The position numbers were made by a program, and so were the translations under genes. Of a stretch of 58,194 nt of DNA, positions 1,211-52,752 are shown piece after piece. A model generated the notes under the pieces. That model was not told where the DNA came from and ran no database searches. It saw nothing but the letters and a program-made list of their open reading frames with translations. How positions within the stretch are numbered: the first letter of the stretch is position 1; the number at the start of each line of letters is the position of its first letter. The DNA is from Candidatus Nomurabacteria bacterium. GTDB taxonomy: Bacteria > Patescibacteriota > Minisyncoccia > Phycocordibacterales > UBA9973. The stretch is taken from NCBI GenBank assembly GCA_025361085.1, contig JANYAX010000001.1:1-58194 (forward strand). Direction: 5' to 3'.

Positions 1211-1277
1211 TTTTCTATTATATAGGGGTTTTATATTTTTGTTAATTGTGATATTTTTATTAGAGTGGAATTACATT

Positions 1278-1314
1278 CCCTCTACTTTATAAGGAGAGGG
1301 GCAGGGGGTGAGGT
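1278..1314 (+). repeat. G+C-rich repeat copy in the prfB leader (CCCTCTACTTTATAAGGAGAGGGGCAGGGGGTGAGGT)
   Basis: Matches 1680-1717 inside prfB with 3 substitutions and one 1-nt indel; its 3' end (GAGGTG, about 10 nt before ATG 1327) is the only Shine-Dalgarno-like sequence for prfB. Confidence 0.85.
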
Positions 1315-1326
1315 GGATTAATTAAT

Positions 1327-6481: not shown

Positions 6482-6555
6482 TACGGGATCGTCTAACGGT
6501 AGGACGTCGCTCTCTGAAAGCGAAAATTTTGGTTCGATTCCAAGTCCCGTAGCCA
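6482..6555 (+). tRNA. tRNA-Gln (anticodon CUG), CCA encoded
   Basis: Manual cloverleaf with acceptor TACGGGA/TCCCGTA, D stem GTCT/GGAC, anticodon stem TCGCT/AGCGA with loop CTCTGAA, T arm TTTGG-TTCGATT-CCAAG; U1-A72 and G73 as in bacterial tRNA-Gln. Confidence 0.9.
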
Positions 6556-10445: not shown

Positions 10446-10469
10446 ACTGCGAGGCAAGGCCTCGCGGTA
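10446..10469. terminator. GC hairpin ACTGCGAGGC-AA-GCCTCGCGGT (probable terminator of the convergent glycosyltransferase gene)
   Basis: Inverted repeat read directly; related to the hairpin at 7105-7119. Confidence 0.5.
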
Positions 10470-31677: not shown

Positions 31678-33522
31678 ATGAAAGAACAAATAGAAAATTT
31701 AATAAAAGAAACTTTAAAAAATCTTGGGATTCCTGCCTGCGCAGGCAGGGAAGATTGTGATTTTTCTGTTGAACATCCTGATGATTTTAATAATGGTGAT
31801 TATTCGACGAATGTGGCGATGGTGAGTGCCAAAAGTTTAAAAACAAATCCAAAAGAATTAGCGGAAAAGATTGTTATAACCCTTCGGCAAGCTCAGGGTG
31901 AATTTCCTGGAATACAGGAAATTCAGATTGCGGGGCCTGGGTTTATAAATTTTTATTTATCTCGAAATTTTTTTACAGAAAGTATAAATAAAATTTTGAA
32001 GGAAGGAGAAAATTGGGGGAAAAATAATTCATCTCTTGGTAAAAAAATAATGGTTGAGTATACCGACCCGAACCCTTTTAAGCCATTTCACATCGGGCAC
32101 TTAATGACGAATGCAATAGGAGAATCGATTTCTCGTATTGTTGAATTCTCTGGAGCTAAAACTGTCAGGGCAAATTATCAGGGCGATATTGGGCCACATG
32201 TAGCTAAAGCGATATATGGTCTTATGAAATTTGGCATGCCTGATGAATTAAAATTAACCGCGGAAAAAGCAGAATATATTGGTGAATGTTATTCGAAAGG
32301 AAGTAATTTATATGATACTGATGAGAATGTTAAAAAAGAAATTGATGAGATAAATAAGAAGATTTATGATAAATCAGATGTTGAGATAAACAAAATTTAT
32401 GATTGGGGGCGAAAAGTAACTCTCGATGCTTTTGAAGAAATATACAAAATTCTTGGAACGAAATTCAATCATTATTTTTTTGAAAGCGAGATGGCGCCTA
32501 TTGGAGAGGAGATTGTTCGCGCAAATGTTATGGCCGAAGGTCCCGAGAGTAACCGAGGGATATTTGAAGATTCAAATGGCGCAATAATTTTCCATGGTGA
32601 GAATTATGACAAGAAACTTCACACACGAGTGTTTATCAATTCACAAGGCCTTCCAACATATGAGACAAAAGAAATTGGTCTCACAATGACTAAATTTGAA
32701 AAAGAAAATCCCGATCTTTCTATTGTTATCACTGCCACAGAGCAAGCCGAATATATGAAAGTAGTTCAGAAAGCTATTTCGTTACTTCACCCAGATTTAG
32801 AGAGTAGAATGAAGCATATTACTCACGGTATGATGCGCTTCGCTTCTGGTAAAATGTCGTCTAGAAAAGGGAATGTAGTCACAGGTGAATCACTTTTGCG
32901 TGATTCGATGGATGTAGTTTATGAAAAAGTTAAAGATCGTGATTTAGAAAATGGAGAAAAAAAGAAAATTGCCGAAGTAGTTGGAGTATCTGCTCTCAAA
33001 TATTCAATTCTAAGGTCGTCTATTGGTAGTGATATTATTTACGATTTTGAAAAATCTATTTCTTTTGATGGTGATTCTGGTCCATATTTACAATACACTG
33101 CAGTCCGAGCAAATTCGATACTCGATAAAGCAAAAGATTTTAAAACCCCCTCGGCTGTTGGCCACTCCTTACAGGAGCAGTACACTTCTCACGTTTTGAA
33201 TACAAAACATTCAAAGTCTTGCGCTTCGGATCCCATCCCGAAGCTCACCCCCTTATCAGGGGGAGAAGTAAATTCTCTTGAAAAATTAATTTATCAATTC
33301 GAAGAAATTGTTGAGTACTCATATGAGAGGCTAGAACCGCATCATATAGCGGTTTATCTTACCGAACTCGCAAGTAGTTTCAATACTTTTTATGGTAATA
33401 CAAAAATTCTTGATGATGGAAACAAAAATATAGCTTATCACTTAGATCTAGTAAAAGCATTTTACCAAACAATGAAAAACGGCCTCTGGCTCTTGGGTAT
33501 TGAAGTTCCAGAGAAAATGTAA
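31678..33522 (+). CDS. argS: Arginine--tRNA ligase
   Basis: PNPFKPFHIGHLMTNAIGE (HIGH) and C-terminal YLTELASSFNTFY; ATG 31678 is adjacent to the dut stop. Confidence 0.9.
   Translation: MKEQIENLIKETLKNLGIPACAGREDCDFSVEHPDDFNNGDYSTNVAMVSAKSLKTNPKELAEKIVITLRQAQGEFPGIQEIQIAGPGFINFYLSRNFFTESINKILKEGENWGKNNSSLGKKIMVEYTDPNPFKPFHIGHLMTNAIGESISRIVEFSGAKTVRANYQGDIGPHVAKAIYGLMKFGMPDELKLTAEKAEYIGECYSKGSNLYDTDENVKKEIDEINKKIYDKSDVEINKIYDWGRKVTLDAFEEIYKILGTKFNHYFFESEMAPIGEEIVRANVMAEGPESNRGIFEDSNGAIIFHGENYDKKLHTRVFINSQGLPTYETKEIGLTMTKFEKENPDLSIVITATEQAEYMKVVQKAISLLHPDLESRMKHITHGMMRFASGKMSSRKGNVVTGESLLRDSMDVVYEKVKDRDLENGEKKKIAEVVGVSALKYSILRSSIGSDIIYDFEKSISFDGDSGPYLQYTAVRANSILDKAKDFKTPSAVGHSLQEQYTSHVLNTKHSKSCASDPIPKLTPLSGGEVNSLEKLIYQFEEIVEYSYERLEPHHIAVYLTELASSFNTFYGNTKILDDGNKNIAYHLDLVKAFYQTMKNGLWLLGIEVPEKM
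31732..31749. repeat. Perfect 18-nt palindrome CCTGCCTGCGCAGGCAGG inside argS
   Basis: Self-complementary; read as PACAGR; near-identical copies at 34891-34908 and 47553-47570. Confidence 0.9.
33145..33267 (+). repeat. Composite G+C-rich insertion of about 120 nt in the argS C-terminal region
   Basis: Four successive hairpins (CTCCT-TAC-AGGAG, GTTTTG-AATA-CAAAAC, CTTCGG-N8-CCGAAG, CCCCC-TTATCA-GGGGG); its ends match the metG element at 46537-46576. Confidence 0.8.
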
Positions 33523-33937: not shown

Positions 33938-36900
33938 ATGGAAGAAAACAAAAAATCACAATCTGCGCTTCGAGAAGAATCAGTTTTACAGTTCTGGAAA
34001 GAAAATGATACTTTCAAGAAAAGTCTCGAGAAAGAATCACCAAAGGGTGAGTATGTTTTCTATGAAGGTCCACCAACTGCCAACGGCAAACCAGGCATTC
34101 ACCATCTAGAGGCACGAGCATTCAAAGATGCAATTCCAAGATATAAAACAATGCGAGGGTATCATGTTCGCCGAAAAGGGGGTTGGGATACGCACGGTCT
34201 TCCTGTGGAATTGCAAGTTGAGAAAAAATTGGGTCTTGCTTCGAAGAAAGCAATTGAAGAATATGGAATTGCAAAATTCAATCAAGAATGCAAAGAAAGC
34301 GTTTGGGAATACACCGATCTCTGGGAGAAATTTACTGACCGCATCGGTTACTGGGTAGACCAGAAGAATGCATATGTAACTTATCACAACGATTATATTG
34401 AATCTGTTTGGAATGTTATCAAAGAAGCCGACAAACAGAAATTACTTTATAAAGATTATAAAGTTGTTCCATGGTGCCCACGTTGTGGGACCGGGCTTTC
34501 TTCGCACGAGCTAGCGCAGGGGTATGTGGATGTGAAAGATTTGTCGGTGTATGCAAAATTTCGACTTGTGCAACAAGTCGTCCCGAGCGAAGTCGAGGGA
34601 AAAAGTCTTTCAATAGGTTATGATACATATATTCTTGCTTGGACAACAACCCCTTGGACACTCCCTGGTAATGTGGCTTTGGCTGTTGGTGAAGATATTG
34701 ATTATGTAAAAATAGAAATTTCATCAGACCTCACCCTTGCTAAGGGGGAGGAGAAGATGGGGGTATTTTTAATTCTTGCAAAATCTCGTCTTTCTGTAAT
34801 AGAAGGCGAGTATAAGACTGTTGAAGAATTTAAAGGTAAAGATTTAATCGGTTTAGAATACGAACCTCTTTACCCTTATCTCTCAAATATCCTGGCTGCG
34901 CAGGCAGGAATTTCTGATCTTGAAAAACAAAAACTCGATAAAGCGTTCAAGGTTTACGGCGCAGATTTTGTGACGACCGAAGATGGTACTGGTGTTGTGC
35001 ACACTGCGGTGATGTATGGAGTAGATGACTTTGTGTTGGGAAATAAAATTGGTTTGCCAAAACATCACATGGTTGGGCTTGATGGAAAGTTCCTAGAAGG
35101 GACCGATTTCTTAGAAGGGAGATTTGTTCGTGACGAAGATGTGGCGGTAGATATAATAAAAGATTTAGCACATCGTGGCCTTCTGTTTAAAAAAGAAAAA
35201 TACGAACACTCATACCCACATTGTTGGCGCTGTAAAACAGCTCTCATTTATTATGCTCGCGATTCTTGGTATATCAGGATGTCGTCTCTTCGCGATAAAA
35301 TGGTAGAAGAAAATGAAAGTATAAATTGGGAACCATCATATATCAAAGACGGGCGTTTTGGTGAATGGCTCAAAGACATAAAAGATTGGGCAATTTCTCG
35401 TGAACGTTACTGGGGTACACCTCTTCCTGTTTGGAGTTGTAATGAATGTAAAAAATATGAAGTTATTGGAAGTTTGGAAGATATAAAATCAAAAACCAAA
35501 AAATCTGGAAATAAATATTTCATAATGCGTCATGGAGTATCGGAAGCTAATATTTGTGATAAGGTGAGTTGCAATGTTAATGATGTTGACCATCTTACCG
35601 AAGAAGGGAAAAAACAAGTTCTAAATTCCATAGAAGATTTAAAAAATAAAAAAATTAATTTAATAATTTCGTCTGATTTTATAAGAACGAAAGAAACAGC
35701 AGAAATTATTAAAGATACGTTAAACATTAAAGAAGAAGATTATATTTTTGAGAAAAGAATAAGAGAATTAAATGTTGGAGTTTTTGATGGGAAAACATGG
35801 AGTGAATATTATGGTTCTCGCGAAGAAAAAGATTGGTACTCTTATAAACCGCAAAGTGGTGAATCATGCAAGGAAGTCAAATTTAGAATGACTAGCTTTT
35901 TGTATGAATTAGAACAAAAATATAAAGATAAAAATATTCTAATCGTTACCCACGAAGGACCAGCTAGAATGTTATTAGCGGGAATACTTGGATTAGATGA
36001 CAAAGAGACAGAAGAACAACTAGAAAATAAAATTCCGCACTTAGAAAATGCTAGTGTAACAGAACTTGATTTTATCCCTCTACCTCACAACGAAAATTAC
36101 GAACTTGATTTTCATAAACCATATATCGATGAGGTTGAATTAAATTGTCAGTGTGGTGGAAAGTTAGAAAGAACAAAAGAAGTGATGGATGTCTGGCTTG
36201 ATTCAGGGACGATGCCGTTTTCGCAAGATCATTATCCTTTCGATTTCCTTCCACAAAAGTCAGGACAAGTCGCGGAGGGCAGGCCATTCGAAAACAAACA
36301 ATTACCTTATCCCGCAGATTTTATCTGTGAAGCGATGGACCAGACTCGTGGATGGTTCTATACCTTGCACGCCGTTGGAATGATAATGGGTAAGGGCAAA
36401 GCCTACAAAAACGTGATTTGTCTGGGTCTTCTTCTTGATGCCCAAGGAAAGAAAATGTCTAAGTCGCTTGGTAATATCGTCGACCCTTGGGAGATGATGC
36501 ACAAATATGGAGCCGATACTATTCGTCTGTGGATGTATTCGGTCAATCAGCCCGGTGACCCAAAGAGTTTCGATGAGAAAGTTGTTTCTGAATTACACAA
36601 TAAAGTTTTCAATTTGCTTTATAACGTTCTCGCTTTCTATGAACTCTATCGTGACCCTTCATTAGAAACTAAAACATATAAATTAGAATCTGATTCGAAT
36701 ATATTAGATCAGTGGATAATTGCACGTCTCTCTGAACTTACAGAAAATATGACCAAGCAACTTGACGGCTACAAACTTCTCGAACCTATCCGCGCGATTC
36801 GAGATTTCATTGATGATCTTTCGACTTGGTATTTGAGACGATCAAGAGATCGTATAAAAAATAATGATCAAGAAGCAAAAATCACAATGTACTATGTTTT

Positions 36901-37579
36901 GAAAACACTAGTCAAACTCATGGCTCCATTTGCGCCTTTCGCAGCCGAAGATATTTGGCAGAGATTAAAAAATAATCGTGTTTCAACAGACGAGACACGA
37001 CATGATTTCGCTAAATCAGAGGTAGAAAGTGTGCATTTAGCAGATTGGCCTGAGTTACCTCTATTGGGTCTCCTTCATACAAAGGGCGAAGGGAAATATA
37101 AGGTTTTGGAAGAAATGCAACAAGTTAGAAAAATTGTTACTCTTGGGTTGCAAGCAAGACAAAAAGCTGGAATTCCAGTAAGACAACCGCTTTCGGATTT
37201 GAGTCTAAAAAATTATGAATTAGATAAAGAATATACAAAAATAATTAAAGAAGAATTAAATATTAAGATTGTCATGACAAATAGTGCAATGACAGATGAG
37301 GTAGTTATAAACACCAACATAGATCCGAAATTAAAACGTGAAGGGCAGTATCGAGAACTCGTGAGAGCAATACAAGATATTCGTAAAAAGAACGGGCTTA
37401 ATCCAAGTGACATAGTTACTATTGTTGCTGATACAAATTCAAAAGGGCAAGAATTGGTAAATGAATTCAAAACCGAGCTCATGAAAGCAGTTAGTGCCAA
37501 AGATATACAGATGAAAGAAAACAGTGGAGAAGAAATGAAAATCGGAGAATTTTCATTTAAAATTTTAATCGAAAAATAA
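33938..37579 (+). CDS. ileS: Isoleucine--tRNA ligase with a nested histidine-phosphatase domain
   Basis: PPTANGKPGIHH (HIGH), WTTTPWTLPGN (editing domain), KMSKSLGN; 1213 aa. Confidence 0.95.
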   Translation: MEENKKSQSALREESVLQFWKENDTFKKSLEKESPKGEYVFYEGPPTANGKPGIHHLEARAFKDAIPRYKTMRGYHVRRKGGWDTHGLPVELQVEKKLGLASKKAIEEYGIAKFNQECKESVWEYTDLWEKFTDRIGYWVDQKNAYVTYHNDYIESVWNVIKEADKQKLLYKDYKVVPWCPRCGTGLSSHELAQGYVDVKDLSVYAKFRLVQQVVPSEVEGKSLSIGYDTYILAWTTTPWTLPGNVALAVGEDIDYVKIEISSDLTLAKGEEKMGVFLILAKSRLSVIEGEYKTVEEFKGKDLIGLEYEPLYPYLSNILAAQAGISDLEKQKLDKAFKVYGADFVTTEDGTGVVHTAVMYGVDDFVLGNKIGLPKHHMVGLDGKFLEGTDFLEGRFVRDEDVAVDIIKDLAHRGLLFKKEKYEHSYPHCWRCKTALIYYARDSWYIRMSSLRDKMVEENESINWEPSYIKDGRFGEWLKDIKDWAISRERYWGTPLPVWSCNECKKYEVIGSLEDIKSKTKKSGNKYFIMRHGVSEANICDKVSCNVNDVDHLTEEGKKQVLNSIEDLKNKKINLIISSDFIRTKETAEIIKDTLNIKEEDYIFEKRIRELNVGVFDGKTWSEYYGSREEKDWYSYKPQSGESCKEVKFRMTSFLYELEQKYKDKNILIVTHEGPARMLLAGILGLDDKETEEQLENKIPHLENASVTELDFIPLPHNENYELDFHKPYIDEVELNCQCGGKLERTKEVMDVWLDSGTMPFSQDHYPFDFLPQKSGQVAEGRPFENKQLPYPADFICEAMDQTRGWFYTLHAVGMIMGKGKAYKNVICLGLLLDAQGKKMSKSLGNIVDPWEMMHKYGADTIRLWMYSVNQPGDPKSFDEKVVSELHNKVFNLLYNVLAFYELYRDPSLETKTYKLESDSNILDQWIIARLSELTENMTKQLDGYKLLEPIRAIRDFIDDLSTWYLRRSRDRIKNNDQEAKITMYYVLKTLVKLMAPFAPFAAEDIWQRLKNNRVSTDETRHDFAKSEVESVHLADWPELPLLGLLHTKGEGKYKVLEEMQQVRKIVTLGLQARQKAGIPVRQPLSDLSLKNYELDKEYTKIIKEELNIKIVMTNSAMTDEVVINTNIDPKLKREGQYRELVRAIQDIRKKNGLNPSDIVTIVADTNSKGQELVNEFKTELMKAVSAKDIQMKENSGEEMKIGEFSFKILIEK
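34730..34750 (+). repeat. In-frame C/G-run hairpin in ileS
   Basis: CTCACCCTT-GCT-AAGGGGGAG, same type as 46557-46576 and 33244-33265; encodes LTLAKGE. Confidence 0.6.
34891..34908. repeat. 18-nt palindrome copy (CCTGGCTGCGCAGGCAGG) inside ileS
   Basis: 17 of 18 nt identical to 31732-31749; read in a different frame (LAAQAG). Confidence 0.85.
35500..36073 (+). other. Histidine phosphatase (PGAM-like) domain nested in IleRS
   Basis: FIMRHGVSEAN (RHG at 35528-35536), SSDFIRTKETA, RELNVGVFDGKTW and IVTHEGPARML, in the canonical order and spacing. Confidence 0.8.
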
Positions 37580-45390: not shown

Positions 45391-46875
45391 ATGCAAAAAA
45401 CATTTTTCTTAACCACAACGCTACCTTACGTAAATGCGCCACTTCACATGGGGCATGCTCTTGAATTTGTGCGAGCCGATACGATAGCTCGCTACAAGAA
45501 ACTTTCTGGTTTTGATGTCTATTTTAATACGGGGACAGATGAACACGGTTTAAAAATATTTGAAAAAGCTAAAGAAAAAGGTTTAACTGCTCAAGAATTT
45601 GTCGACCAAGGGTTTGAAGTTTTTAAAGAACAATTGAAAATGTTTGGGGTAAGTGATGATATTCACTTTATTCGTACAACCGACAAGAGCCATGAAAAAG
45701 CCGCGCAAGAATTCTGGGTTAGGGTGAATGACAATGGTTATATCTATAAAAAGAATTATGAAGCTAAATATTGTGTAGGATGTGAAAGTGGAAAGACTGA
45801 TAGTGAGCTTGTAGATGAGAGATGCTCGCTCCACCCAGATGTTGAATTGAAAATAATTAAAGAAGAAAATTATTTTTTTAAATATTCAGAATTTGGAGAA
45901 AAGCTCCTAGCTTTTTACGAAAAGAACCCTAATTTTGTTGTCCCAGATTTTCGTTTTCATGAGATAAAAAACTTTGTTAAAAATGGTTTGCAAGATTTTT
46001 CTATTTCACGTTTGAAAGAAAAAATGCCGTGGGGGATAGAGGTACCAGGAGATAATACTCAAGTAATGTATGTTTGGTTTGACGCGCTTGTAAATTATAT
46101 CTCGACACTTGGTTGGCCCTTCGCTGATGCTCAGGACCTTCGGCCCTTCGAACAAAATAATTTTGAAAAATACTGGGTGAATGGGAATCCAACGCAATAT
46201 TGTGGAAAAGATAATACTCGTTTTCAGGCGGCTATGTGGCAAGCAATGCTTATGGCTGCGGGTGTTCCAAATTCACATCAAATAATCGTAAATGGGTTTA
46301 TCACAGGAGAAGGGGGAATTCGTATGTCTAAATCACTTGGTAATGGTGTAGACCCACGCGATATTGTGGGTGAATATGGCACAGATGCGCTCCGATATTT
46401 CTTGCTTCGCGAAGTCGGAAGTTTTGAAGATAGCCCATTTACGGTTGAACGATTCAAAGATGCTTACAATTCAGGATTAGCAAACGGGTTGGGAAATTTG
46501 ACGTCGAGGATTTTGACTTTATCGGAAAAATATTTGACCCCCTCTGCCTCCGGCATCTCCCCCTTAGCAGGGGGAGAAAAATACGTTTTTCATACAGAGT
46601 TTACTAATCACTTAGAAAATTTTGATATTCAAAAAGCAACAGAATTTATTTGGCAGAAAATAGGAGATCTAGATAAGAGAATTCAAGAAACAGAACCGTT
46701 CAAGGTTGTGAAAGTAGATATTGAGAAAGGGAAAGAATTGATAAAAGAAAATATCGAGAGACTTTATGAAATATCCGAATTATTAATTCCCATGCTTCCA
46801 GAAACTTCACAAAAAATTCAAGAACTCATAAAACAAAACAAAAAACCAGAAGCCCCATTGTTTTTTAGAAAATAA
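45391..46875 (+). CDS. metG: Methionine--tRNA ligase
   Basis: PYVNAPLHMGHA (HIGH) and RMSKSLGN (KMSKS); ATG 45391 follows the previous stop. Confidence 0.9.
   Translation: MQKTFFLTTTLPYVNAPLHMGHALEFVRADTIARYKKLSGFDVYFNTGTDEHGLKIFEKAKEKGLTAQEFVDQGFEVFKEQLKMFGVSDDIHFIRTTDKSHEKAAQEFWVRVNDNGYIYKKNYEAKYCVGCESGKTDSELVDERCSLHPDVELKIIKEENYFFKYSEFGEKLLAFYEKNPNFVVPDFRFHEIKNFVKNGLQDFSISRLKEKMPWGIEVPGDNTQVMYVWFDALVNYISTLGWPFADAQDLRPFEQNNFEKYWVNGNPTQYCGKDNTRFQAAMWQAMLMAAGVPNSHQIIVNGFITGEGGIRMSKSLGNGVDPRDIVGEYGTDALRYFLLREVGSFEDSPFTVERFKDAYNSGLANGLGNLTSRILTLSEKYLTPSASGISPLAGGEKYVFHTEFTNHLENFDIQKATEFIWQKIGDLDKRIQETEPFKVVKVDIEKGKELIKENIERLYEISELLIPMLPETSQKIQELIKQNKKPEAPLFFRK
46115..46152 (+). repeat. In-frame 38-nt G+C-rich element in metG
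   Basis: GGCCCTTCGCTGATGCTCAGGACCTTCGGCCCTTCGAA; the 16-nt core GCTCAGGACCTTCGGC is identical to the inverted intergenic copy at 48104-48141; the 5' half matches glyA 29528-29555. Confidence 0.85.
46537..46576 (+). repeat. In-frame C/G-run hairpin element in metG
   Basis: ACCCCCTCTGCCTCCGGCAT-CTCCCCC-TTAGCA-GGGGGAG; encodes TPSASGISPLAGGE; the ends match the argS insertion (TPSAVG...TPLSGGE). Confidence 0.85.
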
Positions 46876-46879
46876 AATA

Positions 46880-46912
46880 CCCTCACCTGGCCTCCCCCTA
46901 CATAGGGGGAAG
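46880..46912. repeat. Intergenic C/G-run hairpin element between metG and the TatD gene
   Basis: TCCCCCTA-CA-TAGGGGGA (46893-46910), perfect 8-bp arms. Confidence 0.8.
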
Positions 46913-46956: not shown

Positions 46957-47895
46957 ATGCCCAAATACATTGATATACATTGCCATACGAATTTTAAGAT
47001 TTTCGAGAATGATCGAGATGAGGTTATTCGACGTGCGCTCGATAATGACACCTGGCTTATAAATATTGGTACACAATATGATACTTCGAAAAAAGCAGTC
47101 GAAATGACAAGAGAATATCCTGACGGAGTTTTTGCAACTATTGGCCTCCACCCGATTCATACAGACAAGTCATATCATGATGAGAGTGAGATTGGCGAGG
47201 GTGGTCAAGAATTTTCTTCTCGTGGAGAAATTTTTGATAAAGAAAAATATAAAGAATTAGCTAAACAAGGGAAAGTTGTAGGAATAGGTGAGTGTGGACT
47301 CGATTATTATCACATTGGTTCGACAAGCTCACCACAAAGGGAACTAGAATTTATTGAAAAACAAAAAACGGCATTTATTGCACAGATTGAACTTGCAAAT
47401 GAACTTGATTTACCACTTATGCTTCACGTGCGCAATGGTTCACTTCGTCGGGCTCAGTGTAAACTCAGCTCACCACAGGCAACCGAAAAGAACGCGTATT
47501 TTGATGTTTATGAATTATTAAAAAAGTATTCAAAAAGGATTAATGAAAAAGGCCTGCCTGCGCAGACAGGAGTCTCGCATTTTTTTGCTGGTAGTGTAGA
47601 AGATATGAAAAGATTTATCGAGATAGGAGTATATATTTCTTTTGCTGGTCCAATAACTTATAAACCAAAGCCAGAAATTTGTGACTATATAGGAGTGATA
47701 AAAGAAACCTCGCTAGATATGATTCTTGCCGATACAGACAGTCCATATGTGGCCCCGGTGCCCCATAGGGGGGAAAGGAATGAACCAGTGAATGTATCTG
47801 ATATAGTGGCCAAAATAGCCGAAATTAAGGGGATTAGCGAGGCTGAAGCATCTAAATCGATACTTTCAAACGCCCAAAAACTCTTTAATATATAA
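46957..47895 (+). CDS. TatD-family metal-dependent hydrolase
   Basis: IDIHCH, GECGLDYY, SHFFAG and DTDSPYVAPVPHRGERNEP motifs; about 55 aa longer than typical because of three G+C-rich patches. Confidence 0.85.
   Translation: MPKYIDIHCHTNFKIFENDRDEVIRRALDNDTWLINIGTQYDTSKKAVEMTREYPDGVFATIGLHPIHTDKSYHDESEIGEGGQEFSSRGEIFDKEKYKELAKQGKVVGIGECGLDYYHIGSTSSPQRELEFIEKQKTAFIAQIELANELDLPLMLHVRNGSLRRAQCKLSSPQATEKNAYFDVYELLKKYSKRINEKGLPAQTGVSHFFAGSVEDMKRFIEIGVYISFAGPITYKPKPEICDYIGVIKETSLDMILADTDSPYVAPVPHRGERNEPVNVSDIVAKIAEIKGISEAEASKSILSNAQKLFNI
47317..47340 (+). repeat. In-frame G+C-rich patch 1 in the TatD gene
   Basis: GGTTCGACAAGCTCACCACAAAGG (GSTSSPQR); shares TTCG-CAAGCTCA with argS 31880-31902 and AGCTCACCACA with 47437-47482. 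Confidence 0.6.
47437..47482 (+). repeat. In-frame G+C-rich patch 2 in the TatD gene
   Basis: GGTTCACTTCGTCGGGCTCAGTGTAAACTCAGCTCACCACAGGCAA (GSLRRAQCKLSSPQA). Confidence 0.6.
47553..47570. repeat. 18-nt palindrome copy (CCTGCCTGCGCAGACAGG) in the TatD gene
   Basis: 17 of 18 nt identical to 31732-31749; read as LPAQTG. Confidence 0.85.
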
Positions 47896-51972: not shown

Positions 51973-52015
51973 AAACTAAAAGCACCGCAGGCGAAGCCTG
52001 CGGTGCTTTTAGTTT
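51973..52015. terminator. Bidirectional intrinsic terminator
   Basis: AAACTAAAAGCACCGCAGG-CGAAG-CCTGCGGTGCTTTTAGTTT. Confidence 0.9.
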
Positions 52016-52017
52016 GG

Positions 52018-52752
52018 TTATATTAAATTTAATGATTTTAAAAATTCATCGAGTTCTTTACCTTTGATTTCCCTGAATTCTCCTAAACCAAGTTTACCAA
52101 GTTCTACGTTCATTATGCGTATTCGTTTTAGGTCTATAACTTCGTGGTGTAGAGCTTCACACATTCGTCTTATTTGGCGCTTTTTGCCTTCTGTAAGTAT
52201 TATATGGAAAGTATCTTTTGGTTTCGGTTTGCGCCCGCCTTGACTCGGCGAGGCAGGCCAAACTTTACATTTTTTACTTATGAATCCATCAAAGTGAACG
52301 CCACTCCCCATGAGAGTTATGAAAGTATCTGAGAAAGGTTTATCGACTCGAACGACGTATTCTTTTTCGTGTACAAAGCGTGGAGATAGGAGACGGTCAG
52401 TCACACGACCATCATTTGTCATAATTATAAGTCCATGAGAATCTTTATCGAGTCGGCCGACAGGAAAGACTTTCACTGGGAATTTTGTTACATGTAAAAT
52501 ATCTTTACTTGTCGTATCAGGATTCGTGGAGACATTTATGTCTTTATTGTAGGCGTAATATACATATTCTTTTTTATCACCCTTCATTTTTACAATTACT
52601 TCATCGCCATCATTTACTTTATCTCCGAGAACTGCTTTCCGGCCATTGATAAAAACGAGACCTTTTTTGATAAGTTCATCTCCACCGACACGGGTAGAAT
52701 AATTCTTCAGAGCTAAATATTTATTTATTCGGACAGGGTAAATTATTATCAT
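52018..52752 (-). CDS. Pseudouridine synthase, RsuA/RluB family
   Basis: N-terminal S4-like RINKYLA and catalytic PVGRLDKDSHGLIIMTNDG; G+C-rich patch at 52231-52260 encodes ASPSQGGRKP. Confidence 0.85.
   Translation of the reverse strand: MIIIYPVRINKYLALKNYSTRVGGDELIKKGLVFINGRKAVLGDKVNDGDEVIVKMKGDKKEYVYYAYNKDINVSTNPDTTSKDILHVTKFPVKVFPVGRLDKDSHGLIIMTNDGRVTDRLLSPRFVHEKEYVVRVDKPFSDTFITLMGSGVHFDGFISKKCKVWPASPSQGGRKPKPKDTFHIILTEGKKRQIRRMCEALHHEVIDLKRIRIMNVELGKLGLGEFREIKGKELDEFLKSLNLI

What the first reader, a model, noticed from the sequence alone, without database searches (positions are those of the whole stretch)
31732..31749. Perfect 18-nt palindrome CCTGCCTGCGCAGGCAGG present in three different coding sequences in two reading phases
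Copies lie at 31732-31749 (argS, perfect), 34891-34908 (ileS, 17/18) and 47553-47570 (TatD gene, 17/18). In argS the palindrome starts at codon position 1. In ileS and TatD it starts at codon position 3, which gives unrelated peptides. Three chance occurrences of an 18-mer in 58 kb are not credible. A possible fourth relative shares GGCCTGCCT on the coding strand of the pseudouridine synthase (52231-52260). The centre is TGCGCA, and each copy can form a 7-9 bp GC hairpin or cruciform.
Basis: seen in the sequence. Interest (0 to 1): 0.7.

Follow-up and report, generated by a model that had tools for sequence, protein, structure and literature searches.

The report
Tiny palindromic insert inside essential genes
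An 18-base GC-rich palindrome has been spliced cleanly, as six extra codons, into three housekeeping genes of this AT-rich Patescibacteria (CPR) genome, and the same 18 bases recur at hundreds of unrelated sites across that superphylum, so it behaves like an extremely small mobile or self-propagating DNA unit that I could not find described in the paper library.

Summary
CCTGCCTGCGCAGGCAGG lies at 31732-31749 (argS, perfect), 34891-34908 (ileS, 17/18) and 47553-47570 (tatD, 17/18), where shuffles give zero. Alignments with the nearest homologues show that each copy is an exact 18-nt, 6-codon insertion with no target duplication and no shared flanks. All three tatD insertion sites lie in inter-element loops of a predicted model. 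At least 71 of the 120 genome loci are Patescibacteria of about 20 named lineages. I found 242 unique sites with unrelated flanks. Coding copies strongly favour the frame that reads LPAQAG (57:11:9). At orthologous sites the 18-mer is identical at all synonymous positions while neighbouring codons are saturated. Only the paired positions 5 and 14 vary often. Carriers do not form a clade. One near-identical gene pair shows a decayed copy against a precise 18-nt absence. No transposase is linked. Best reading: an ultra-short palindromic insertion element that enters and leaves precisely and is translated. The enzyme or drive behind it is unknown. It most resembles Rickettsia palindromic elements and yeast mitochondrial GC clusters but differs from both. 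I found no publication on it in the library.

The parts
31732..31749 (.). Copy 1, the perfect palindrome CCTGCCTGCGCAGGCAGG. It is in argS at codon phase 1 and encodes PACAGR (ArgRS residues 19-24).
   Evidence: One search shows an exact match. In one search the six residues are an exact insertion absent at this site from all 59 aligned nearest homologues (KNLGI|PACAGR|EDCDF against KNLGI|EDVSF). In one search none of the other 119 ArgRS homologues has PACAGR.
34891..34908 (.). Copy 2, CCTGGCTGCGCAGGCAGG (C5>G). It is in ileS at codon phase 3 and encodes (I)LAAQAG, splitting an ancestral ATA or ACN codon after its second base.
   Evidence: It is an exact 6-aa insert against 57 of 59 homologues. 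P0271 (LSAQTG) and P0279 (LSAQAG) carry a copy at the same nucleotide position.
47553..47570 (.). Copy 3, CCTGCCTGCGCAGACAGG (G14>A). It is in tatD at codon phase 3 and encodes (G)LPAQTG, splitting a GGA Gly codon after its second base.
   Evidence: It is an exact 6-aa insert against the short homologues (..IK|GVSHFF). The site is shared by 10 of 120 homologues that do not form a clade. It lies in the loop between helix 180-191 and strand 205-209 of the AlphaFold model.
31678..33522 (+). Host gene argS (arginyl-tRNA synthetase).
   Evidence: Pfam Arg_tRNA_synt_N, tRNA-synt_1d and DALR_1. Homologues are 67-75% identical Paceibacterota/Nomurabacteria ArgRS.
33938..37579 (+). Host gene ileS (isoleucyl-tRNA synthetase with an embedded His_Phos_1 domain).
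   Evidence: Pfam and homologues.
46957..47895 (+). Host gene tatD (TatD-family hydrolase).
   Evidence: Pfam TatD_DNase, homologues, and a structure model with mean pLDDT 83.
52234..52257 (-). A separate GC-rich insert, CCTGCCTCGCCGAGTCAAGGCGGG (PASPSQGG), in the pseudouridine synthase gene. It shares only its first bases and the end GGCGGG with the 18-mer.
   Evidence: One search shows a 7-10 aa insertion against three syntenic orthologues. One search shows it is a different family, with one relative in L061. The same peptide occurs nested in tatD loops of P0147 and P0180.

Best explanation
The 18-bp palindrome (CCTG)2-CG-(CAGG)2, with consensus CCTGNCTGCGCAGNCAGG, is a discrete, self-contained insertion element. 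It is the smallest kind of palindromic repeat element and populates AT-rich Patescibacteria genomes. It enters a site as exactly 18 bp, with no target-site duplication and no co-transferred flanks, and it can leave again just as precisely. It is six codons long and stop-free in all three frames of either strand. Copies that land in surface loops of proteins are therefore tolerated and translated, mostly as x-LPAQAG-x. Copies elsewhere are presumably lost. Shown: it is an insertion, it has precise boundaries, it is present or absent among close relatives, it occurs at many unrelated sites, old copies decay, one precise 18-nt absence exists in a near-identical gene, and it sits in loops. Inferred: movement occurs through the single-stranded hairpin form at replication forks, in a process similar to peel-and-paste, because there is no duplication, both gain and loss are precise, and some copies sit exactly at the centre of other palindromes. 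Also inferred: the near-invariance of 16 of the 18 positions across about 20 named Patescibacteria lineages reflects recognition by a conserved sequence-specific trans-acting factor, so that only intact copies stay active and most visible copies are young. In this window the argS copy is perfect and unique to this lineage, so it is the youngest. The ileS and tatD copies each have one mismatch and are shared with other lineages, so they are older.
For: The motif is real and non-random. Each window copy is an exact 6-codon insertion relative to homologues.

At least 71 of those loci are labelled Patescibacteria, from about 20 named lineages, and flanks are unrelated. Genome and metagenome loci together give 242 unique sites, of which 137 lie in local GC below 45%. 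Flanks show no extended complementarity or conservation, apart from a purine at -1 and a pyrimidine at +1, which also holds in non-coding copies.

Other insertions of the same hexapeptide occur at different sites: three sites in TatD homologues, one in ArgRS P0057, a nearby but different site and phase in Zambryskibacteria argS (L058), and four different sites in UvrC of four loci.

Carriers of the tatD site-C copy are not a clade. Within-group identity is 0.80 and between-group identity 0.797, and the nearest neighbour lacks the insert in 8 of 10 cases.

Fifteen syntenic loci of close relatives, about 250 kb, hold no copy and no decayed copy.

L386 and L387 are 94-96% identical tatD genes. 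One has a decayed copy, CTTGCCTGTGCAGACAGG, with three C>T or G>A changes. The other has a precise 18-nt absence between AGG direct repeats.

Four copies sit at the exact centre of other palindromes: L077, L069, L065 and L023. In a Sphingobacteriales MAG the 18-mer is one module of mosaic GC-rich repeats.

The three tatD hot spots are inter-element loops with lower pLDDT.
Against: No transposase or other candidate mobilising gene was found next to copies. The recurrent neighbours are ordinary genes such as UvrC, HsdR, IleRS, MgsA and FtsW.

Eighteen base pairs is far below the size any characterised transposase is known to mobilise (from general knowledge).

The same nucleotide position is occupied in several non-sister lineages, in tatD sites A, B and C, in ileS, and in an intergenic tRNA-Gln-like site next to mgsA. 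This requires either strong target specificity, although the empty targets share no motif, or old insertions.

If the insertions are old, the complete identity of all 6 synonymous positions in 6 orthologues, against only 32 of 160 such codons outside the insert, argues for nucleotide-level maintenance. A simple selfish-insertion model does not predict that.

The frame bias could come from the R|Y target preference combined with codon structure, so it does not by itself prove translation.
Confidence: 0.5

Rival explanations
1. The 18-mer is a functional or driven genomic signal. It would be a palindromic recognition site for a conserved dimeric DNA-binding protein, or a DNA-uptake-type signal of these constitutively competent cells. 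Selection or uptake-biased recombination (molecular drive) would maintain it at the nucleotide level. In a 35% GC genome such a site cannot arise by point mutation, so it is seen only where it was once inserted, and lineages that lost the reader protein purge it.
For: All six synonymous positions are identical in six tatD orthologues whose other third positions are saturated, and conservation stops exactly at the element boundary. In about 1 Mb, every copy found matched all 16 fixed positions of the degenerate consensus, with no copies 1-2 further mismatches away. Variation is concentrated at positions 5 and 14, which vary independently of each other, as expected for a non-contacted position in each of two half-sites rather than for a structure. 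Mismatched variants do not keep the hairpin. An orthologous non-coding site next to mgsA and tRNA-Gln keeps a perfect copy in five lineages while the pseudo-tRNA around it decays. The frame and loop preferences resemble those reported for uptake sequences in coding DNA (from general knowledge; related literature PMC1939737, PMC1626085).
Against: Density is low and erratic: 3 copies in 58 kb here, 0 in about 250 kb of close relatives, and at least 3 exact copies on a 598-kb contig. Known uptake signals occur about once per kb (from general knowledge). One copy has clearly decayed and been deleted without replacement. Known binding or uptake sites arise in place by substitution, whereas every case tested here is an exact insertion. 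Copies on the 598-kb contig are dispersed, so the motif is not centromere-like. No candidate reader protein was identified.
Confidence: 0.25
2. There is no dedicated machinery. Nuclease-resistant GC-rich hairpin oligonucleotides, from imported environmental DNA or from excised copies, would be captured at nicks or forks by ordinary replication and repair enzymes. Hairpin-promoted slippage would remove them. The family persists because the oligonucleotide pool is self-renewing.
For: There is no target duplication and no linked gene. Several unrelated GC-rich, often hairpin-forming inserts occupy the same loops of the same genes, sometimes nested. The deletion in L387 lies between 3-nt AGG repeats at the hairpin base. 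The motif also occurs in some non-CPR MAGs.
Against: It does not explain why one exact 18-mer, among all possible hairpins, is shared across the superphylum. It does not explain why 16 positions are invariant. It does not explain re-use of the same nucleotide position.
Confidence: 0.12
3. The element acts at the RNA level. The hairpin would be removed from the transcript (a mini-intron or bypassed segment, like mitochondrial 'byps'), or it would serve as an RNase or ribosome-pausing signal.
For: The perfect copy forms a stable RNA hairpin (-14 kcal/mol with flanks). GC-rich mobile inserts in yeast mitochondrial genes are bypassed by ribosomes (the bypassing literature was listed but not read; this point is from general knowledge).
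Against: The length is always a multiple of three, there are no stops, and one frame is strongly preferred (57:11:9). Old copies evolve as protein sequence while keeping their length (GLPVQT, DLPAQI, GQSAQT). Variants that destroy the hairpin persist. The flanks show no take-off and landing codon match.
Confidence: 0.06
4. The copies are chance matches or a sequencing or assembly artefact.
For: None beyond the fact that all the data are MAGs or metagenome contigs.
Against: Zero matches are expected in shuffles. My own estimate of the chance frequency in DNA of about 36% GC is roughly 7e-13 per position. The same in-frame insert appears in independent assemblies from ENA, JGI, NCBI (including GCA_000380845.1) and Logan. 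Decayed versions and precise empty sites exist.
Confidence: 0.01

Closest known systems
Rickettsia palindromic elements (RPE)
   Same: Both are palindromic repeats that insert in frame into conserved protein-coding genes of a reduced AT-rich bacterial genome. Both are translated as extra peptide segments in permissive regions and also occur in non-coding DNA and RNA genes (from general knowledge; reviewed in PMC10969869).
   Different: RPEs are about 100-150 bp, restricted to Rickettsia, and diverge within families. This element is 18 bp, is nearly invariant, is spread over a whole superphylum, has no detectable flanking structure, and shows precise loss.
Yeast mitochondrial GC clusters (e.g. 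GC42) and related hairpin elements of organelles (sponge RHE, Volvox palindromes)
   Same: Both are short GC-rich palindromic units colonising very AT-rich genomes. Both show patchy presence and absence at homologous positions, merging or nesting with other clusters, and an unknown mobilising enzyme (PMC4478555, PMC2800124, PMC2670323).
   Different: GC clusters are 30-50 bp, carry a putative AG or TAG target duplication, evolve fast and are organellar. Here there is no duplication, the sequence is constant, and the hosts are bacterial chromosomes.
REP/REPIN elements mobilised by RAYT (Y1/HUH) transposases; IS200/IS605 peel-and-paste transposition
   Same: All involve short hairpin-forming palindromes. 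Single-strand HUH transposition gives no target duplication and allows precise excision, which is the behaviour inferred here (PMC3733652, PMC10055086).
   Different: REPs are extragenic and 20-40 nt, carry a conserved GTAG or CGTC tag, occur in hundreds of copies and co-occur with a RAYT gene. Here there is no tag, at least 77 of the 137 low-GC sites are coding, density is low, and no RAYT or TnpA gene was seen near any copy.
HIP1 (GCGATCGC) of cyanobacteria and DNA uptake sequences (DUS/USS)
   Same: Both are phylum- or family-wide conserved short motifs found inside genes in preferred frames, conserved beyond coding needs, with a debated function or drive (PMC5861425, PMC1939737).
   Different: Those motifs are 8-12 bp, hyper-abundant at about one per kb, and arise by substitution. 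This one is 18 bp, sparse, and installed as a whole insertion.

Membership tests
REP/REPIN (RAYT-associated) | Conserved GTAG or CGTC tetranucleotide tag adjoining the palindrome | tested here: not met
   Flanks of 88 low-GC sites show no conserved bases other than purine at -1 and pyrimidine at +1.
REP/REPIN (RAYT-associated) | Extragenic location, high copy number, inverted doublets | tested here: not met
   77 of 137 low-GC sites lie in long open frames and 26 are clearly non-coding. Density is 0-3 copies per about 50 kb. No doublets were seen.
REP/REPIN (RAYT-associated) | A RAYT (Y1 transposase) gene in the same genome | tested here: inconclusive
   None of the recurrent ORF families within 3 kb of copies is a transposase. 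Whole genomes could not be searched.
MITE (DDE-transposase dependent) | Terminal inverted repeats plus a target-site duplication; length about 50-500 bp | tested here: not met
   The inserted DNA is exactly 18 bp with no duplicated target bases.
Rickettsia palindromic elements | In-frame palindromic insertion within conserved ORFs | tested here: met
Rickettsia palindromic elements | Length of about 100-150 bp and sequence homology to RPE families | tested here: not met
   The element is 18 bp and the organisms are Patescibacteria. Sequence homology to RPE families was not directly compared.
Yeast mitochondrial GC clusters | GC-rich palindromic unit in AT-rich DNA, patchy at homologous positions, merging with other clusters | tested here: met
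   The unit is 72% GC in a 36% GC genome. Distribution is patchy. Nested and mosaic arrangements occur in L077, L107 and Sphingobacteriales bin43.
Yeast mitochondrial GC clusters | Putative AG/TAG target-site duplication | tested here: not met
   Filled and empty sites differ by exactly the 18 bp.
IS200/IS605-type single-strand transposition | No target duplication and precise excision | tested here: met
IS200/IS605-type single-strand transposition | Insertion 3' of a specific tetra- or pentanucleotide; distinct left and right subterminal hairpins; a tnpA gene | tested here: not met
   Only a purine preference is seen at -1. The element is a single symmetric hairpin. No tnpA was seen nearby.
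DNA uptake sequence (DUS/USS) | Preferential uptake of motif-bearing DNA; about one copy per kb | not testable with these tools
   Uptake cannot be tested here. The density criterion was examined and is far lower than one per kb.
parS-like centromere or other protein-binding palindrome | A cognate binding protein; clustering near the origin | tested here: inconclusive
   The copies found on the 598-kb contig JBAZKU010000001 lie in the 40-48, 144-152 and 344-352 kb ranges, so they are dispersed. No protein could be tested.
Intrinsic terminator | GC hairpin followed by a T run at a gene end | tested here: not met
   The window copies lie inside ORFs and have no T tract. Hairpins that look like real terminators are at 10449-10467 and 51985-52003.

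The most novel reading that the evidence does not exclude
The 18-mer would be a superphylum-wide DNA signature of Patescibacteria, actively maintained at the nucleotide level by a conserved palindrome- or hairpin-specific protein such as an uptake receptor, a nucleoid or segregation factor, or a domesticated HUH-type enzyme. It would be installed in genomes only by whole-unit insertion. That would make it the smallest known DNA unit that propagates itself and the first sequence-specific genome tag of the CPR.
Probability: 0.22. Interest if true: 0.9.

Novelty: new variant of a known kind. Interest (0 to 1): 0.72.

Why it matters
If confirmed, this sets a new lower size limit of 18 bp for a DNA unit that spreads within and between genomes. 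It would also show that essential CPR genes (tRNA synthetases, UvrC, TatD) are being remodelled by such units. The combination of exact insertion, exact loss and nucleotide-level constancy across a superphylum points to an undiscovered sequence-specific activity in organisms whose DNA transactions (uptake, recombination, repair) are almost unstudied. In practice, the motif and its sister inserts explain many lineage-specific 'low-complexity' loops in CPR proteins. They could also serve as taxonomic or population markers and as a handle to fish out the responsible protein.

Tried and rejected
- **Longer element.** The flanks of more than 200 copies are unrelated and not complementary, so the element is not longer than 18 bp.
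- **Phage origin.** Only 25 viral contigs carry the motif, nearly all GC-rich, and 3 are low-GC.
- **Known RNA family.** A gathering-threshold Rfam scan of 18 loci with non-coding copies found only tRNAs and one group II intron fragment about 1 kb from the copy.
- **tRNA intron.** Five copies lie inside a tRNA-Gln-like 5' fragment. After removing the 18 nt, ARAGORN calls a poor tRNA overlapping the insertion site only in L038. These are decaying pseudo-tRNA copies beside an intact tRNA-Gln.
- **Linked transposase or nuclease.** All-vs-all clustering of 1,495 ORFs within 3 kb of copies gave only housekeeping families. Pfam annotation of the window ORFs between 209 and 26465 found no mobile-element genes.
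- **'EVGLPKI' tatD loops as decayed copies.** Rejected. Their DNA is a different palindrome, GGAAGTCGGACTTCC, found only at that locus.
- **Homologous-recombination spread of filled alleles.** Rejected as the sole mechanism, because synonymous differences begin at the codon adjoining the element.
- **LexA-box or sortase-motif resemblance.** Considered and dropped, because the motifs do not match (and direct inspection).
- **Literature.** Nine searches, including the sequence itself and LPAQAG, found no description.
Full report
**Observation.** The pattern search finds three copies of CCTGCCTGCGCAGGCAGG in the window.
- 31732-31749 is perfect.
- 34891-34908 has C5>G.
- 47553-47570 has G14>A.

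No match appeared in 100 dinucleotide-preserving shuffles. The window is 35.7% GC and the motif 72% GC. The hosts are argS, ileS and a tatD-family gene.
- codon position 1 in argS, giving PACAGR;
- codon position 3 in ileS, giving (I)LAAQAG;
- codon position 3 in tatD, giving (G)LPAQTG.

The two mismatches fall on the two partners of one base pair, positions 5 and 14. Only the perfect copy and the compensated variant fold into the full 7-bp hairpin. The ileS copy has an interrupted stem, and the tatD copy does not take the canonical fold.

**It is an insertion.** The closest homologues are Paceibacterota/Nomurabacteria proteins, 67-78% identical, so the organism is a Patescibacteria (CPR) bacterium.
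- In ArgRS the six residues PACAGR are absent at that site from all 59 aligned homologues (KNLGI|PACAGR|EDCDF against KNLGI|EDVSF).
- In IleRS, LAAQAG is absent from 57 of 59.
- In TatD, LPAQTG is absent from the short forms (..IK|GVSHFF).

In every case the extra DNA is exactly the 18-mer, with no duplicated target bases and no additional sequence. In an AlphaFold model of TatD (mean pLDDT 83), the three sites where this element occurs in the family are inter-element loops with reduced confidence.

**Distribution.** An exact-match scan of one genome per species stopped at its 120-locus limit. At least 71 of those loci are labelled Patescibacteria, from about 20 named lineages including WWE3, Microgenomates groups, Paceibacterota groups, Saccharibacteria and Dojkabacteria. 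About 16 are Bacteroidota, and the rest are mixed. Some 'uncultured Gammaproteobacteria' and 'Saccharibacteria' labels of third-party MAGs are unreliable, because close Paceibacterota relatives of this window carry them.

The metagenome scan also hit its limit, and many of the contigs it returned come from groundwater metagenomes. Viral contigs gave only 25 hits, nearly all GC-rich. My own estimate of the chance frequency in 36% GC DNA is about 7e-13 per position, so the enrichment is enormous.

The genome and metagenome loci give 242 unique sites, of which 137 lie in locally AT-rich DNA. Of these 137, 77 are in long open frames, 26 are clearly non-coding and 34 are ambiguous. Flanks are unrelated and not complementary, so the unit is the 18-mer itself. 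The only flank signal is a purine at -1 and a pyrimidine at +1, which also holds in non-coding copies (18/26 and 19/26).

Coding copies favour phase 3, which reads LPAQAG. The counts are 57:11:9 for phase 3, phase 1 (PACAGR) and phase 2 (CLRRQ). This may reflect peptide tolerance, the target preference acting on RNY-like codons, or both.

**Behaviour at orthologous sites.** The same hexapeptide occurs at three positions in TatD homologues (after DYYH; before K(S/T)xNAY; before GVSHFF). It also occurs at the ileS site in two other lineages, at another site in ArgRS P0057, at a nearby but different site and phase in a Zambryskibacteria argS (L058), and at four different sites in UvrC of four loci.

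Carriers of the tatD site-C copy are scattered over the tree. Within-group identity equals between-group identity (0.80 against 0.797), and 8 of 10 have a nearest neighbour without the insert.

DNA recovered for orthologous copies shows every one matching CCTGNCTGCGCAGNCAGG. In a codon alignment of six tatD orthologues (75-86% aa identity), all six synonymous positions inside the element are identical in all six sequences. Outside the element, only 32 of 160 conserved degenerate codons share a third base, and pairwise third-base identity is 0.55. The boundary Gly codon varies (GGA, GGC, GGT).

In about 1 Mb of related DNA there were no copies 1-2 further mismatches away from that consensus. 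Fifteen syntenic loci of close relatives, about 250 kb, had no copy at all.

A degenerate scan shows the canonical C5/G14 form predominating. There are roughly 40 canonical copies (my estimate, not counted) against 11 variants in low-GC loci of the same scanned portion, and 8 of the 11 are the C>T or G>A transition. One copy is the compensated perfect palindrome CCTGTCTGCGCAGACAGG (L150).

Decay and loss do occur. Two tatD genes 94-96% identical in DNA differ by exactly 18 nt. The filled allele carries CTTGCCTGTGCAGACAGG, with three AT-ward transitions. The empty allele reads AAAGG|GGTA, which is consistent with slippage between AGG repeats at the hairpin base.

**Context.** No transposase or other mobile-element gene recurs near copies. 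None was found among the window ORFs between 209 and 26465 that were scanned against Pfam. The ORFs beyond 26.5 kb were not all scanned.

The same genes carry several other lineage-specific, GC-rich and often hairpin-forming inserts.

Some copies sit at the exact centre of other palindromes (L077, L069, L065). In a Sphingobacteriales MAG the 18-mer is one module of mosaic intergenic repeats. Five Parcubacteria-type loci have a perfect copy between positions 10 and 11 of a decaying tRNA-Gln-like fragment beside an intact tRNA-Gln, and in three of them (L027, L038, L110) mgsA is also adjacent.

**Interpretation.** The facts that are shown define a discrete insertion unit:
- exact 18-bp gain;
- exact loss;
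- many unrelated sites;
- patchy distribution;
- decay of some copies;
- location in protein loops.

The closest described things are Rickettsia palindromic elements and yeast mitochondrial GC clusters (PMC4478555). This unit is several times smaller than either, lacks a target duplication, and is nearly invariant across a superphylum.

The absence of a duplication, the precision in both directions and the insertion into palindrome centres suggest that it moves as a single-stranded hairpin, resembling IS200/IS605 or REP-RAYT chemistry. It fails the defining tests for those families: no tag, no specific target, no linked gene, and mostly intragenic location.

The main unresolved tension is that the same nucleotide positions are filled in non-sister lineages with a sequence that has not drifted. 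There are three possible resolutions.
- Turnover is fast and targets are strongly preferred.
- The motif is maintained by selection or molecular drive, as a protein-binding or uptake-type signal.
- Existing copies are repeatedly corrected from a pool of consensus units.

I favour the selfish mini-element reading (about 0.5). I keep the maintained-signal reading as a serious rival (about 0.25).

Within the window the pattern fits an age series. The argS copy is perfect and unique to this lineage. The ileS and tatD copies are imperfect and shared with other lineages.

**Novelty.** Nine full-text searches, including the sequence and the peptide, found no description. I class this as a new variant of a known kind: short palindromic elements that colonise coding DNA of AT-rich genomes. 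There is a real chance that it is something more unusual.

Noticed in passing
window 35519-36073 (IleRS residues 528-712): A complete histidine-phosphatase domain (His_Phos_1, E=1e-32) is embedded inside the isoleucyl-tRNA synthetase. The precomputed Pfam lists show it in all 120 listed homologues, so it is a conserved fusion or insertion in this Paceibacterota group.
   Followed up: partly
window 1270-1316, 1680-1718, 33244-33264, 34727-34750, 46536-46575, 46880-46910: A second GC-rich repeat family of the type CCTCACCCC..CCCCTCTCC-loop-GGAGAGGGG (or CCCCC-TTAnCA-GGGGG hairpins) occurs both between genes and inside ORFs (release factor, ArgRS, IleRS). In L107 the 18-mer is nested between the CCTCACCCC and CCCTCTCC parts of such a unit.
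   Followed up: partly
window 32536-32559, 33157-33228, 34580-34621, 34721-34756, 36242-36289, 36977-37015, 47320-47343: Further lineage-specific inserts of 8-24 aa in ArgRS, IleRS and TatD are absent from most homologues. Most are GC-richer than their surroundings and several could form hairpins. One example is CGTGTTTC..GAGACACG at 36977-37015. Another is TCGACAAGCTCACCACAAAGGG at 47320.
   Followed up: partly
L027:1690-1830, L037:3500-3640, L038:6720-6830, L042:340-490, L110:700-800: A perfect 18-mer sits between positions 10 and 11 of a tRNA-Gln-like 5' fragment (..TCG|18-mer|TCTAATGGTAGGAC) next to an intact tRNA-Gln. In L027, L038 and L110 mgsA/rarA is also adjacent. The pseudo-tRNA is decayed to different extents while the 18-mer stays perfect. 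The window's own tRNA-Gln (6482-6555) has no such fragment upstream.
   Followed up: partly
L155, L157, L159, L165, L169 (tatD loop, e.g. L159:6839-6853): Many TatD relatives carry a different palindrome, GGAAGTCGGACTTCC (peptide EVGLP), a few codons upstream of the 18-mer site. Its synonymous positions are also conserved. It was found nowhere else in about 2 Mb of held loci.
   Followed up: partly
L012, L033, L071, L077, L083, L102 (Sphingobacteriales bin43, JAAFJW01): In this Bacteroidota MAG the 18-mer is non-coding and combined in varying order with other short GC-rich modules (GCGTTAACGAYGGTAGCGG, TAACACGCT, GGGCGTTT, CATCC). The result is a mosaic repeat architecture reminiscent of BIMEs or merged GC clusters.
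   Followed up: no
window 10449-10467 and 51985-52003: These are GC-rich hairpins between convergent genes (GCGAGGC-AAG-GCCTCGC, and CCGCAGGC-GAA-GCCTGCGG with A/T-rich complementary flanks). They look like ordinary bidirectional terminators and are unrelated to the 18-mer.
   Followed up: no
L158, L159, L171 and other 'MAG TPA_asm' records: Records titled 'uncultured Candidatus Saccharibacteria' or 'uncultured Gammaproteobacteria' encode TatD proteins 41-72% identical to this Paceibacterota window. The organism labels of these third-party assemblies are therefore unreliable, and the CPR share of motif hits is probably underestimated.
   Followed up: no
L070:3958-7494: A type I restriction R subunit with an N-terminal GIY-YIG domain carries the 18-mer as LPAQAG. 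The blastp cluster seeded by this protein drew members from 7 loci near copies, but most of those members are short ORFs of 84-132 aa, and some are spurious frames read across the 18-mer.
   Followed up: no
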